From positions 324,756,001 to 324,820,000 of the forward strand of contig OZ024740.1 in assembly GCA_964016885.1 (NCBI GenBank): 64,000 nucleotides of DNA, in the 5' to 3' direction. The stretch is from Eledone cirrhosa. Its lineage: Eukaryota. Every line of letters begins with the position of its first letter. The stretch's first letter is position 1. Below are positions 379 to 41,425 of this stretch, in pieces. Both the position numbers and the translations under genes were made by a program. Under the pieces are notes generated by a model. The model had not been told where the DNA came from and did not search any database. It worked only from the letters and a program-made list of their open reading frames with translations.

Positions 379-414
379 CTTTACCGGTTTCGCAGTTTTT
401 CTGCTTTTCAAAAG
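379..414 (-). ncRNA. Minimal hammerhead motif, family C (U3-A8 variant), in 3' pLTR
   Basis: Minus strand reads CTT-TTGAAAA-GCAG AAAAA CTGC-GAAA-CCGG-TA-AAG. Confidence 0.7.
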
Positions 415-3388
415 TAGAGTTGAGATGGTGGGTCTGTGGTTTTTCTCACATCTGGTTGGTCTTTGAATGTTACTTGTTTTATATGGAAAAAAGTGGCTCG
501 TAACGCCAGGTTTTTAGAGAAGTAATTTGATTGGTTGGTCAATAAGTATAATAAATTTCGCGCCAGTTCGCGTTACAAAGTTCTTCAAACAAGGGGGGGA
601 GGGGCTCAAGTTGCTTTTTCATATATGAGTGTTTGAATCTCTTTTTACTTAAAAAAGGAGGCTCACGAAGGCTTCTTTTTTTTTAAAATGCAATTTGATT
701 GGTTATAAATGAAATTATGACTGTCACCGGAACAAGTACCGCGCCCGTATTTGGGAATTTATTTTGTAGTCTTTTAGAGAATTTTATGACAAACAAAAGA
801 TAATGGTCAAGAGAAATGGGATGGGGAGAATTGTTCTGGTTCAGTGAATATGGCTAGTTCGCTGGGGTGTCAGAATTCAGACTTTCTATTGAAATAAAGA
901 AAGTAGACATATGTATGTTTATTTGTGTGCTTGTGTGTGTGTATAGGAAGATGATTCTATTTGTAGAAATGGGAGAGGGAGTTGTGTGTGTGTGTGTATA
1001 TGGGTGTTATGTGTGTGTGTGGGAGTATGTTAAGATGGAGAGAATATATATATTCTGTGTGTGTGTAGGAAAGTGATTCTATTAGTAGAAATAGGGGAGG
1101 GAGATGTGTGTGTGGGGGGGCGTTTATGTGTGTGTGTATGGGTGTTATGTGTGTGTGTGGGGGTATGGTTATCATGTTAAGATGAAGAGAATATATATTT
1201 TGTGTGTGTGTGTGTGTGTGTGTGTGTGTGTATGTGTAGGAAAATGATTCCGTTAGTAGGAATATTTTTGAATGAACATATTTTCCTTATTCGTATTTGT
1301 TCTGTTGTATTGTCAGCGTAAACGTATGTTAAGGTTTATTTAGTTCGAGTTTTTATTTTCTAAAGTAGAAGGTGTTATGTGTGTGTGTATGTGTCTGTTT
1401 GGATGGTTAGCATGCTATGGTGTTGACATAATGTATATTAAACCATATTTAATGCTGGTCTTTATTTTTGAATAAACATATTTTCCTTATTTATTCGTAT
1501 TTGTTCTGTTGTATTGTCAGCGCAAAGGTAAAATCGGAAGACTTGGAATTTGGGTGAATTATTACTTGCGCAAATGTCTAGAGTGCGCTTAGTGGTATCT
1601 GTCTCGTGGCTGGATCTCGTAATTGTTGGCGATGAACTGTCATTCTATTTCTGAGTGTGAGTTTAGTTTGTCCTATATAATCTTCATTGCATCCTTTACA
1701 TTTAATGGCATAAATTAGATTTTTTGATGAGCAAGTGAAGTGATTTTTTACAGCAAAATTTTGTCCTGATTTAAATGTATACGTGTTGCCTTCAATGAGG
1801 TGAGTGCAGGTTTCACAATTAGAGCGACCACATTTTTTGACAGTTGGTTGTGGGTTTGTGGTAGGTAATTTGGCATTGGTGAGTAATGTTTTCAGTGATT
1901 TCGATTGTCTTTTGTTTTTGATTATTTTGTGTGTTTCAAGGGCTTTTTTCATTCTTGGGTCTTATTTCAGTAGTGGGATGTTCTTGTGAATAGTGTTGTA
2001 AGCTTCTGCATTTCTTGGGTTGTGTGTTGAGATATATTATAGAATATTGGACGTACCTTGAATTTGTTTCTGTTTTCGTAATTCATCAATGCCTATTGCT
2101 TTAGCCCTTTCTATTCCATTATTAATTAGTAATGGTGGGTACTGTCTTTCGAGTAGAATTTAATTTAATTCTTGAAGTCTTTTATTTCGCGTTTCATAAT
2201 TGGAAACAATTGTGCAAATTCTTCTTGCCAGGTTAAATGGAATATTGGTCTTCGTGTGCTTTGGATGGTTGGAGGTGAATAGCAGGTATTGTTTGGAATC
2301 TGTTGGTTTGTAGTGTATGTCAGTTTCAATATTTGTCTTTTTTTAAGATTAAGATGTCCAGAAATGGGAGTTGATCTTGGCTGTATTCCATTGTGAATTG
2401 GATGTGGTTATTGATGCAGTTTATTCAATTTTTGAAATCATTCAGTTGGTCGAGTGTGTGGGGGCCAAAGTATGAGACAATCATCCAAGTAGCGTTTCCA
2501 ATTCTCTGATAAATATTTCTGAAAGTTCAATCCGTATTTTCATTTGGAGTGTTCATAAATCTGGACTTCTAAGTATGCCATGACTAAGTTGACATAATTC
2601 GGAGCGGCTTTTGTACCCATCGCAGTCCCCGATATGTGCTTGTAAGTACTACCATCGAAATCAAAAAAGTTGTTCTGTAAGATAAATTTTAATCCCTCGG
2701 TGATGAAGCTTTTTTCTATTCTACTAGGTGGCTATGTGGTCAAAAAATTTGCCCAGACCTCTGCTTCTACCTTTTGTTGGGTTGTAGCTGCTTTTATTCC
2801 GTACAATTGATTGGTCGTTATTCTCCTTGTCAAAGAATTCCTCTGTGAGACGTAATTTTTTACAGAAGTATGAGATATTGTCATTTATCTCATTGAGGTT
2901 AGAGAATTGTGGTGTTGGTGTGAATTTCAGTCCTTTGGAGAGAATTTTTACTTGTTGGGCTGAGAGGTTTGTATTTGAAAGGTTGATTATTTTCGGTTTT
3001 TCAAAATCGGTTTGTGCCACCGGGTGTCGTGGATCCTGTAGCCTTGGTCTAAAAAATGATTTTTCTGGAATGTTTTTACAATGGTATTATTATATCTAGT
3101 GGCATTTCGCCTGTTTTGTGGTCTTGTATAGAAATTTCGGACGTATTGATGTCCGGTTTGTTGATATTCCGGGTTGCAGATTTTGTAAAAACAAGCTGAG
3201 CCCCCCCCCCCTTGTTTGAAGAACTATGTAACGCCAACTGGCGCGAAATTTATTATACTTATTGACCAACCAATCAAATTACTTCTCTAAAAACCTGGCG
3301 TTTCAGCCACTTTTTTCCGTATAAAACAAGTAACATACAAAGACCAACCAGATGTGAGAAAAACCACAGACCCTCCATCTCAACTCTA

Positions 3389-3424
3389 CTTTTGAAAAGC
3401 AGAAAAACTGCGAAACCGGTAAAG
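3389..3424 (+). ncRNA. Minimal hammerhead motif, family C, in inverted pLTR
   Basis: CTT 3389-91, TTGAAAA 3392-98, stem II GCAG/CTGC, GAAA 3412-15, palindromic ACCGGT, A3421, AAG. Confidence 0.7.
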
Positions 3425-3521
3425 GAACCAAATAAATATATATATATAATTTTAAAAATAAGACTCCGGTTGCATTTTCGATTTCATCTTATTTTCTTAT
3501 ATATATATATATATAGTTACG

Positions 3522-3705
3522 TTATTCCGGGTTGAATCGGAGGTAACCACAGTAAGTAAGGCACTCAATACATTGCAGAGTATAACAGTTTTAATATAGA
3601 TGAGATTCTACAGGACTAGAACTGTTTCATACTTTAGAAATCATCAGGAATCGCTGATGATTTCTAAAGAATGAAACAGTTCTAATCCTGTAGAATCTCA
3701 TCTAT
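3522..3705. mobile_element. Family B hammerhead foldback (pLTR-derived)
   Basis: ~3596-3647 is the reverse complement of ~3654-3705; full motif on minus strand 3603-3652; 5'-truncated motif on plus strand 3654-3698. Confidence 0.75.
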
Positions 3706-39228: not shown

Positions 39229-39710
39229 ATATAGATGAGATTCTACAGGACTAGAACTGTTTCATTCTTTAGAAATCATCAGGAATCTGGCTGTCCAAAA
39301 TAAATGTTGTGGTATTTATATCTTTTCTGGTGGTAGGAAAGATTGGGGAGTGGGATGGGTGGAGGTCATTGGTTGAAAGTAAAGGGAATTCTTTAAGGCT
39401 ATAATTTATAGAATTCTTTCTGCCTTTGTCACTCTAAATATAAATTATAGCCTTAAAGAATTACCTTTTAATGAATTCCCTTTTCTTTCAACCAATGACC
39501 TCCACCCATCACAGTCCGCACCCTCTCCTACCACCTGAAAAGGTATAAATACCACAACATTTATTTTGGACAGTCAGATTCCTGATGATTTTTAAAGAAT
39601 GAAACAGTTCTAGTCCTGTAGAATCTCATCTATATTAACACTTTTATACTCTTCTATGTATTGAGTACCTTACTTACTGTGGTTACCTCAGATTCAACCC
39701 GGAATAATTT
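39229..39710. mobile_element. Family B foldback with divergent hammerheads (39238-39288 minus; 39576-39626 plus)
   Basis: AGATTC-CTGATGA(39582-88)-short stem II-GAAA(39601-04)-CAG..CTG-TA-GAATCT; arms ~39229-39410 and ~39435-39635; extra tail to ~39710. Confidence 0.8.
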
Positions 39711-39865
39711 ACCTATATATATATATATATATATATATATATATATATATATATATATATATATATGTGTGTGTGTGTGTTTGTATGTATGTATGTATAT
39801 ATATTTATATATATATAGGTGTATATGCATGTATATATGTATATATATGCATCTTAGTCTTAGTC

Positions 39866-40995
39866 TTAGTTCCTCCAGTCCCTTGTGGAACATTGGGCGA
39901 CGATCTCCCTCCACTTGATCCTGTCACTGGTGGCCCTTCTAGCACCTCTCCAGGTAATTCCCATTTCCCGCAGGTCCTCCCTGAATGTGCTCCGCCATGT
40001 TTTTCGTGGTCTTCCCCATTCTCTCCTGCCACCTTCTGGTACCCAATCCATGGCAATATGAACAGGTCGGTCTGCCGGCAAACGAAGGATGTGGCCCGCG
40101 AACCGCCGTCTCCTTTTCCGGACAATGTCCCTTAACCTCTCCAATCCTGACCTCCTCATCACTTCCTCGTTGCTAACTTGGTCTCTCCATGAAATTTTCA
40201 ATATGGTCCGAATGCAACGACGGTGGAATACATCAAGCTTGTTACATACACTTTCCGTACTCTTCCATGTCTCACAGGCATATATCGCTGTTGGTACTAC
40301 AATGGACATGTAAACACGGAATTTGACGGCGTTGCCGATGGAACACCTGGACCATACCGAACGGAGTCGCTGGAAGACCGCCGCTGCTTTTCCCAGCCTT
40401 GTGCCTACATCCACCTCAGCATCCCCATCGTCAGAGATGTTGCTGCCAAGTTATTGGAAGTGGTTTACACATTCAATGTTACGCTGACCAACCATGATGG
40501 GAGGATTTGGAGGGTCACATGTCGACATGGGCTTGGTTTTTTCACAACTGATGCGCAGGCCAACTTTCTCTGCATTGTCATTTAGAACGTTTGTCATCTC
40601 TTGCAGGTCTTCTCGGGAATGGCCTATCACTACGATGTCATCGGCAAAGTCCAGGTCGCTTAATCTCCTTCCATCCCAACTGATGCCAAAACGAGGGTCA
40701 CTCATTGTCTTCTTCATGATGAAATCGATGACAATGAGGAAAAGGAAAGGCGAAAGGATGCAGCCTTGTCAAACACCCGCCAAGATGTCAAACATTTCCG
40801 TGTTTCCGTCCTTTGTCTTAAGGCAGCACCTGGAATGTCGGTACAGCGACCTGAAGATGTTAATATATTTCTCTGGGACACCGTAGAGTCTTACAATCTG
40901 CCACAATAACTCCCGATGGACACTGTCGAAAGCTTTCCTGAAGTCAATGTAGTTGACAACAAGGGACTTGAGGAACTCCCGATATTGTTCAATGA
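39866..40995 (-). mobile_element. RTE-type LINE reverse transcriptase, 5'-truncated
   Basis: YIDFRKAFDSVHR, GV*QGCILSPFLF, LDFADD, IYACETW, RRRRFAGHILR, GRPRKTW. Confidence 0.92.
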
Positions 40996-41087
40996 TATGC
41001 ATATATGTGTGTATATATATATTGTTCAATGATATGCATATATATATATATATATATATATATATATATATATATATATATATATAT

Positions 41088-41425
41088 TAGAAAATGAGGT
41101 TTTTTTACAAAATGACAAAAAAAACGAGGTGTCCTACACGAGTGAAAGTATAAGGAAAAAAGATGAAATCGAAAATGCAACTAGAGTCTTTTTTTATAAC
41201 AATATATATTTATTTGGTTCCTTTACTTGTTTCGCAGTTATTCTGCTTTTCAAAAGTAGCATTGAGATGGAGGGTTTGTGGTTTTTCTCAAAAACCACAA
41301 ACCCTCCATCTCAATTCTACTTTTGAAAAGCAGAACACTGCGAAACCAGTAAAGGAACCAAATAAATATATATTTTTATAAAAAAAGACTTCAGTTGCAT
41401 TTTCGATTTCATCTTTTTTCCTCAT
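41088..41425. mobile_element. Family C foldback with divergent hammerheads (41221-41256 minus; 41320-41354 plus)
   Basis: Palindrome centred near 41288; CTT-TTGAAAA-GCAG AACA CTGC-GAAA-CCAG-TA-AAG. Confidence 0.78.

What the first reader, a model, noticed from the sequence alone, without database searches (positions are those of the whole stretch)
379..41354. Family C core reads UUGAAAA: compensatory U3-A8 swap of the conserved C3-G8 pair
Seen in four copies: CTT-TTGAAAA-GCAG loop CTGC-GAAA-NNNN-TA-AAG, about 36 nt in total. Established: positions 3 and 8 form a Watson-Crick pair in the active hammerhead. Inference: the double change C3U plus G8A preserves that pair, so this is a functional variant that CUGANGA pattern searches would miss. 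It lies in the pLTR of the coding Penelope-like element in the same sense as the ORF. Stem I is only 3 bp, so chance similarity is not excluded.
Basis: partly seen in the sequence, partly recalled or inferred. Interest (0 to 1): 0.75.

Follow-up and report, generated by a model that had tools for sequence, protein, structure and literature searches.

The report
U3-A8 hammerhead in Penelope-like retrotransposon
About 14,000 copies of a jumping gene in this animal genome carry a small, likely self-cutting RNA whose core base pair is U-A instead of the usual C-G, a swap already published for this class of elements; the one odd detail is a neighbouring A that is predicted to mispair with the U and damp cutting.

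Summary
The four copies are real (4 found, 0 in 200 shuffles). They are the minimal type I hammerhead in the terminal repeat (pLTR) of a Neptune-type Penelope-like element. Genome-wide the family reads U3/A8 13,962 times, C3/A8 55, U3/G8 29, C3/G8 0. Compensation shows across families: with positions 3 and 8 left free, 38 of 39 hits beside related reverse transcriptases are Watson-Crick, and close relatives keep C3-G8 at the same place with the same ACCGGU palindrome. The variant is known: Cervera and de la Pena 2014 report U3-A8, including the core UUGAAAA, in Penelope hammerheads. Corrections: helix III is a palindrome, so cutting likely needs a dimer; only copy 414-379 is sense to the ORF, 3389-3424 is inverted; the window element is broken; both 41-kb copies have lost the palindrome. 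The residual oddity is U3 with A17: a U3-A17 mispair is predicted 1.4 kcal/mol below the active register. Cleavage is untested.

The parts
379..414 (-). Hammerhead copy 1 (U3-A8, palindrome intact, A17 at 382), in the 3' pLTR, sense to the ORF
3389..3424 (+). Hammerhead copy 2 (palindrome intact, A17 at 3421), in the inverted 5' pLTR, antisense to the ORF
41221..41256 (-). Hammerhead copy 3, palindrome broken (ACAAGU)
41320..41354 (+). Hammerhead copy 4, palindrome broken (ACCAGU), loop II one base shorter
234..621 (-). 3' pLTR with its 68-nt tail, ending in a (TA)n tract
   Evidence: 90% identity to L065:2348-2737; element ends at L065 2669 and 2737
3184..3503 (+). Inverted 5' pLTR copy, 94% identical to 301-621
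1441..3186 (-). Broken element body: last part of ORF1, then RT and GIY-YIG endonuclease with a C-X4-C-X2-C linker; 5'-truncated, about 690 nt deleted at 2722/2726, several stops and frameshifts
   Evidence: intact copies encode RVT_1 and GIY-YIG
3050..3056 (-). U UUU UUA heptamer in register at the ORF1/ORF2 overlap (predicted -1 frameshift site)
41081..41440 (.). Head-to-head pair of 5'-truncated pLTRs with no ORF, carrying copies 3 and 4

Best explanation
This is the minimal type I hammerhead of a Neptune-type Penelope-like retrotransposon, fixed with a U3-A8 core pair in about 14,000 copies, and it likely cuts the element's RNA weakly and only as a dimer formed through its ACCGGU palindrome. 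Shown: the motif, its fixed place at the end of the pLTR (168-171 nt before the ORF1 start in full-length tandem copies and again at the 3' end), fixation of U3/A8, and Watson-Crick covariation of positions 3 and 8 across related families. Inferred: a tandem transcript carries two sense copies about 4.7 kb apart, which would pair palindrome to palindrome, swap stem I strands and cut after GUA, trimming out a unit-length element RNA. The rate is likely low, and may need the element's own protein, because stem I is 3-4 bp and U3 can mispair with A17. The window's own copies are decayed passengers: one sense, one antisense, two with broken palindromes.
For: Genome counts: 14,416 matches to the open-core pattern against 1 for the reversed control; 13,962 U3/A8, 55 C3/A8, 29 U3/G8, 0 C3/G8. 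Position: sense copy downstream of ORF2 in 19 of 20 long-frame loci; sense copy upstream of the ORF1 start codon in 5 of them. Covariation: in 97 loci of related RTs, with positions 3 and 8 free, 39 hits = CG 30, UA 6, AU 1, GC 1, AA 1 (29 distinct families, 28 Watson-Crick), null 0.65 per shuffled set. Of 13 close loci read by eye, 10 show a full motif at the pLTR place: 9 C3-G8, 1 U3-A8, four with the same ACCGGU palindrome and different stems. On an RT tree of 35 rows the five U3-A8 rows need 5 changes, at least 4 forced by starred branches. A second repeat family in this window has both states in the genome: 108 C3-G8 of 1,588, the sister copy L106 being 85% identical. Palindrome duplex -8.3 kcal/mol; the dimer is the cofold minimum. 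Literature: U3-A8 in PLE hammerheads, dimers needed, low activity (PMC4209133); U3-A8 active in vitro and natural (PMC3088659); a PLE hammerhead that needs the element's protein (PMC11167929).
Against: No cleavage data. Within this family there is no C3/G8 copy, so it gives no covariation of its own (0 seen, 0.1 expected). The U3-A17 mispaired dimer is predicted 1.4 kcal/mol more stable than the active register, and for the window's 3-bp subfamily stem I is barely formed (probability 0.02). None of the 8 other U3-A8 motifs seen (5, the second window family, 2 rows) has A17, though A17 is uncommon anyway so this is not significant. In the one PLE tested in vitro, hammerhead cleavage was not needed for insertion and no reads ended at the cut site.
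Confidence: 0.72

Rival explanations
1. Gated ribozyme: the U3-A17 pair keeps the RNA in an uncut state by default, and cutting happens only when a protein or a partner RNA opens it; the U3-A8-A17 combination is kept because uncut RNA is the template for reverse transcription.
For: Trapped register predicted 1.4 kcal/mol lower, U3:A17 pair probability 0.46 in the intact subfamily's dimer; a C3-G17 pair is the proposed cause of G17 inhibition (PMC3884650 passages); A17 is fixed, with only 79 otherwise exact copies carrying another base; unprocessed RNA was the main insertion substrate for an Anolis PLE.
Against: Nearest-neighbour energies leave out the core's tertiary contacts; a U-A pair is weaker than C-G; G17 variants still cleave, 8- to 100-fold slower. 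A17 also occurs with C3-G8 in two close relatives (L116, L195), so it may simply be inherited.
Confidence: 0.18
2. Dead relic: the ribozyme lost its function in the master element, and U3 and A8 were fixed one after the other by drift or AT bias and then amplified with the element.
For: AT-rich genome (window GC 0.32-0.48); both changes are transitions towards AT; weak stem I; Naiad elements spread without canonical hammerheads.
Against: Every other core base, stem II and the palindrome are intact although RT is only 37-49% identical to the nearest relatives found; stem I is extended to 4 bp in the subfamily with intact ORFs (34 of 36 pattern matches, the other two being spurious); no family hit shows C3/A8 or U3/G8.
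Confidence: 0.08
3. Chance likeness to a hammerhead in a repeated sequence.
For: Stem I is only 3 bp in the window copies; Rfam shows no hammerhead match.
Against: 0 in 200 shuffles; the canonical motif sits at the same place in homologous elements.
Confidence: 0.02

Closest known systems
Minimal type I hammerheads (min-HHR) of metazoan Penelope-like elements, U3-A8 variant of Schistosoma mansoni Cercyon (Cervera and de la Pena 2014, PMC4209133; parts 1-2 of 4 read, supplement file 2 part 2 of 3 and search hits; file 1 not searchable)
   Same: In the pLTR; U3-A8 instead of C3-G8 (about 1,300 hits there); the PLE-linked row S. mansoni(4) has the same core UUGAAAA and a 3-bp stem I; G10.1-C11.1 pair; palindromic helix III; dimer requirement.
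   Different: Here no extra base between A9 and G10.1, a 4-bp stem II, a 6-bp palindrome rather than 4-bp, A17 rather than U or G in the two published U3-A8 rows seen, and about ten times the copy number.
Natural U3-A8 hammerheads (Perreault et al. 2011, PMC3088659; passages read)
   Same: C3-G8 covarying to U3-A8 in nature, described as active in vitro.
   Different: The passages read do not tie them to Penelope elements or to palindrome dimers.
Neptune/Nematis clade of endonuclease-bearing Penelope-like elements (Craig et al. 2021, PMC8557442; passages and supplement search hits read)
   Same: RT then C-terminal GIY-YIG, CX2-5CxxC linker, pLTR with tail, inverted 5'-truncated copy, (TA)n targets, hammerhead in the pLTR.
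   Different: The abstract describes a single ORF for canonical elements; this family has ORF1 overlapping ORF2 in the -1 frame. The Fig. 1 legend mentions an ORF1 separated by a frameshift with pseudoknot but the text I saw does not say for which clade.
Poseidon PAc hammerhead of Anolis (PMC11167929; passages read)
   Same: PLE hammerhead with a tested 3-8 pair.
   Different: C3-G8 core; overlaps the start codon; cleaves only with the element's protein and is not needed for insertion in vitro.

Membership tests
Type I minimal hammerhead of PLEs | Core N3-UGA-N-N8-A and GAAA with a Watson-Crick 3-8 pair | tested here: met
   UUGAAAA and GAAA in 4 of 4 window copies and 13,962 genome matches
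Type I minimal hammerhead of PLEs | Stem II with G10.1-C11.1 | tested here: met
   GCAG/CUGC, 4 bp
Type I minimal hammerhead of PLEs | Palindromic helix III allowing a dimer | tested here: met
   ACCGGU, -8.3 kcal/mol, in copies 1 and 2 and the family norm; broken in copies 3 and 4
Type I minimal hammerhead of PLEs | NUH triplet and stem I of at least 3 bp | tested here: met
   GUA; 3 bp in the window subfamily, 4 bp in the intact subfamily
Type I minimal hammerhead of PLEs | Located in the pLTR, sense to the ORF | tested here: met
   Sense copy 3' of ORF2 in 19 of 20 long-frame loci; in the window only copy 1 is sense
Type I minimal hammerhead of PLEs | Unpaired base between A9 and 10.1 (common in min-HHR) | tested here: not met
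   Absent here and in close relatives L117, L120, L193, L197; also absent in some published rows, so not strictly defining
Type I minimal hammerhead of PLEs | Self-cleavage after N17 | not testable with these tools
   Needs an assay
Neptune/Nematis EN+ PLE | RT followed by C-terminal GIY-YIG endonuclease | tested here: met
   RVT_1 (E 4.9e-6, below the curated cut-off) and GIY-YIG (above cut-off) in intact ORF2; GIY-YIG in the window
Neptune/Nematis EN+ PLE | CX2-5CxxC linker between RT and endonuclease | tested here: met
   C-GRSN-C-GT-C in L065, C-GRSN-C-ET-C in the window
Neptune/Nematis EN+ PLE | Phylogenetic placement with named Neptune rather than Nematis references | not tested
   No named references in the tree; the label Neptune rests on the linker and (TA)n targets

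The most novel reading that the evidence does not exclude
A self-trapping hammerhead: the U3-A8 swap, combined with an A at the cut site, lets U3 pair with A17 and holds the ribozyme off by default, so that a very successful retrotransposon family (about 14,000 copies, many with intact ORFs) uses the 3-17 mispair as a switch between uncut template RNA and cut RNA. In addition, Penelope hammerheads use all four Watson-Crick pairs at 3-8 in nature, including G3-C8 and A3-U8.
Probability: 0.2. Interest if true: 0.55.

Novelty: new member of a known kind. Interest (0 to 1): 0.25.

Why it matters
The swap itself is published, so the finding adds a family rather than a concept. It does matter practically: a CUGANGA search misses about 14,000 motifs of this family and most of a second family of 1,588 in this one genome. 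The U3/A17 combination gives a clean natural test of whether a 3-17 mispair tunes hammerhead activity, and whether Penelope elements need their ribozyme to cut at all, which is still open.

Tried and rejected
Rfam scan: no hammerhead among listed hits, only microRNA-like hairpins. RNA evidence: no RNA holder listed; contigs of three runs of unrecorded kind showed no joint across the ribozyme, and the AT-rich stretch just behind it was skipped by the tool, so nothing can be said on expression, splicing or cut ends. Intron idea: a possible donor overlaps the GUA triplet and a pyrimidine-rich acceptor lies about 97 nt downstream, but the donor is not kept in L114, L119, L121; left as a weak lead. 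A search for C3-G8 families with the same ACCGGU palindrome in this genome gave 2 matches against 140 for the reversed control: none. ESM Atlas for ORF1: top hit 0.85 (gag-like clusters) with recognition below threshold, a lead only. The one-clade test for U3-A8 rows did not finish. Papers not held: Lunse et al. on dimer cleavage, Arkhipova et al. 2017, Nelson and Uhlenbeck 2008, Przybilski and Hammann 2007; the last two may already hold rates for U3-A8 with A17.
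Full report
Observation. The string TTGAAAAGCAG occurs exactly four times in the window, each inside CTT-TTGAAAA-GCAG-loop-CTGC-GAAA-NNNN-TA-AAG at 414-379 (-), 3389-3424 (+), 41256-41221 (-) and 41320-41354 (+). A strict descriptor finds these 4 and none in 200 locally shuffled windows. The four copies belong to one repeat family, so they are one observation; the tests that matter are position and covariation.

The element. Bases 234-3503 are one insertion between (TA)n tracts. On the minus strand it holds pieces of an RT and a GIY-YIG endonuclease with a C-X4-C-X2-C linker, the mark of Neptune/Nematis elements according to passages of PMC8557442. 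Against an intact genome copy (L065) it is 88-92% identical, 5'-truncated inside ORF1, lacks about 690 nt of RT and has stops and frameshifts. Its 3' pLTR (621-234) carries copy 1 in sense; 3184-3503 is an inverted pLTR, so copy 2 is antisense to the ORF. Copies 3 and 4 are a head-to-head pair of truncated pLTRs without ORF. The genome is about 3.0 Gb; earlier scan notes call it cephalopod-like, which I did not test.

Family in the genome. The open-core pattern has 14,416 matches against 1 for the reversed control. By state: U3/A8 13,962, C3/A8 55, U3/G8 29, C3/G8 0. U3/A8 is thus fixed in the source elements; the singles are post-insertion decay, and 0.1 doubles are expected, so this family cannot show covariation by itself. 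I fetched 20 loci chosen for long open frames among the 150 protein matches. In 19 of 20 a sense motif lies about 1.0-1.4 kb after ORF2; in 5 a sense motif also lies 168-171 nt before the ORF1 start codon. In those loci stem I is 4 bp (34 of 36 pattern matches; two were spurious), against 3 bp in the window's subfamily.

Covariation across families. An alignment of ORF2 with 40 of the 120 listed homologues fetched 80 metagenome and 17 genome-collection loci. A descriptor with positions 3 and 8 free gave 39 hits in these 97 loci: CG 30, UA 6, AU 1, GC 1, AA 1; 34 are on the RT sense strand; locally shuffled sets gave 0.65 hits each. After merging repeats of one family there are 29, of which 28 are Watson-Crick. 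The descriptor misses motifs with short or U-U-closed stem II, so I read the pLTR region of 13 close loci by eye: 10 have a full motif, 9 with C3-G8 and 1 with U3-A8; L114, L119, L121 and L115 keep the same ACCGGU palindrome with different stems; L123 has a C3-G8 core with almost no stem II; L113 and L194 gave nothing clear. On an RT tree of 35 rows (left out: duplicates L158, L199, L203, antisense hits L141, L168, L190, and loci without a motif) this family sits in a 99/99 clade of 9 C3-G8 and 2 U3-A8 rows, and the five U3-A8 rows need 5 changes, at least 4 forced by starred branches (midpoint root, one-clade test unfinished). A second hammerhead repeat in this window (17.5-18.5 kb) gives covariation inside the genome: 1,588 matches, 108 of them C3-G8; among the first 100 listed 89 U3/A8, 9 C3/G8, 1 C3/A8, 1 U3/G8; the C3-G8 copy L106 is 85% identical to the window copy over 450 nt.

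Mechanism. The six bases A15.1-CCGG-U16.1 cannot form a hairpin but self-pair between two motifs (-8.3 kcal/mol); the cofold minimum of two copies is this duplex. Two sense copies in a tandem transcript (4.7 kb apart in L065) would form a double hammerhead and cut after GUA, releasing a unit-length RNA. This step is inferred from PMC4209133, where monomers were inactive and dimers weakly active, and from a review (PMC6765202 passages). In the window neither pair can do this in cis: copies 1 and 2 are on opposite strands, and copies 3 and 4 have broken palindromes.

U3 is complementary to A17. A C3-G17 pair stacked on helix I is the proposed reason why G17 inhibits ordinary hammerheads, by at least 300-fold in minimal and 8- to 100-fold in stabilised forms (PMC3884650 passages). 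Here the U3-A17 register is predicted 1.4 kcal/mol below the active one in both subfamilies; in the 4-bp subfamily it is the minimum with pair probability 0.46, and in the 3-bp subfamily stem I is mostly open. These energies omit tertiary contacts. A17 is fixed (79 otherwise exact copies have another base). None of 8 other U3-A8 motifs seen has A17, but A17 is uncommon in C3-G8 motifs too, so avoidance is not shown. For the Anolis PAc element the ribozyme cut only with protein and was not needed for insertion, so weak or gated activity is compatible with an active family.

Comparison with the literature. PMC4209133 states that Cercyon elements carry 'U3-A8 instead of C3-G8' with about 1,300 hits, and its supplement lists a PLE-linked motif with the same core UUGAAAA and a 3-bp stem I. 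PMC3088659 reports natural U3-A8 covariation. The finding is therefore a new member of a known kind. Searches for a U3-A8/A17 discussion and for natural G3-C8 or A3-U8 each returned one paper, seen only as a listing for those terms; four primary papers were not held, and supplement file 1 of PMC4209133 could not be searched, so absence from print is not established.

Side result. Intact copies have a 400-aa ORF1 overlapping ORF2 by 91 nt in the -1 frame, with U UUU UUA in register; the window keeps it at 3056-3050. U UUU UUA or U UUU UUG lies in register at the end of ORF1 in 8 of 8 relatives examined (L113, L114, L115, L118, L119, L121, L122, L193). I found this before consulting earlier notes, which show the scan has reported it several times; the Fig. 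1 legend of PMC8557442 mentions such a frameshift without naming the clade in the text I saw.

Verdict. Observation confirmed; interpretation right in substance, known since 2011-2014, and in need of the corrections above. Interest 0.25.

Noticed in passing
window 3050-3056 (-); L065:3871-3961: ORF1 overlaps RT-endonuclease ORF2 in the -1 frame with U UUU UUA in register; U UUU UUR in 8 of 8 relatives examined. Likely programmed -1 frameshift; noted before by this scan.
   Followed up: partly
window 17490-18500: Second U3-A8 hammerhead family (UUGAUAA core, GUAC stem II, palindromic helix III, GUC site) in about 320-bp tandem and inverted units, no RT match; 1,588 genome matches with a C3-G8 sister subfamily of 108. 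Retrozyme-like.
   Followed up: partly
window 3596-3705, 39222-39290, 39577-39731, 61568-61721: Third hammerhead repeat with canonical C3-G8, a U-U pair closing stem II and a GUA site; the same U-U closure occurs in PLE relatives L115, L116, L121, L195.
   Followed up: partly
L163:117 and L157:1969: Hammerhead motifs with G3-C8 (in the pLTR of a circular contig) and A3-U8 beside PLE RTs: natural cases of the two rarer Watson-Crick pairs, one contig each.
   Followed up: partly
L123, about 1865-1895: C3-G8 hammerhead-like motif with 6-bp stem I and palindrome but only 3 nt in place of stem II.
   Followed up: no
L065:2588-2686; window about 384-290 (-): Possible intron: donor-like GTAAAG overlapping the cleavage triplet and a pyrimidine tract ending in TAG in the tail; donor not kept in three relatives; no RNA data.
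   Followed up: partly
L114:3840-3890, L119, L121; L065:2675-2760: A hairpin with an AT-rich loop just before the ORF1 start codon appears in several relatives with changed but complementary arms.
   Followed up: no
window 44169-45584 (-): Uninterrupted frame with a CAP (cysteine-rich secretory protein) domain, a signal-peptide-like start and a C-terminal hexapeptide repeat (Pfam PF00188, E 2.8e-21).
   Followed up: partly
window 30850-38060: About 7 kb of strongly pyrimidine-skewed tandem sequence with long open frames on the + strand, probably a satellite.
   Followed up: no
window 8189-8402 and 42429-42508: Further short pLTR ends of the same family, truncated behind the ribozyme.
   Followed up: partly
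L193-L209: Penelope-type RTs in contigs labelled as bacterial metagenome-assembled genomes, probably host DNA in the bins.
   Followed up: no
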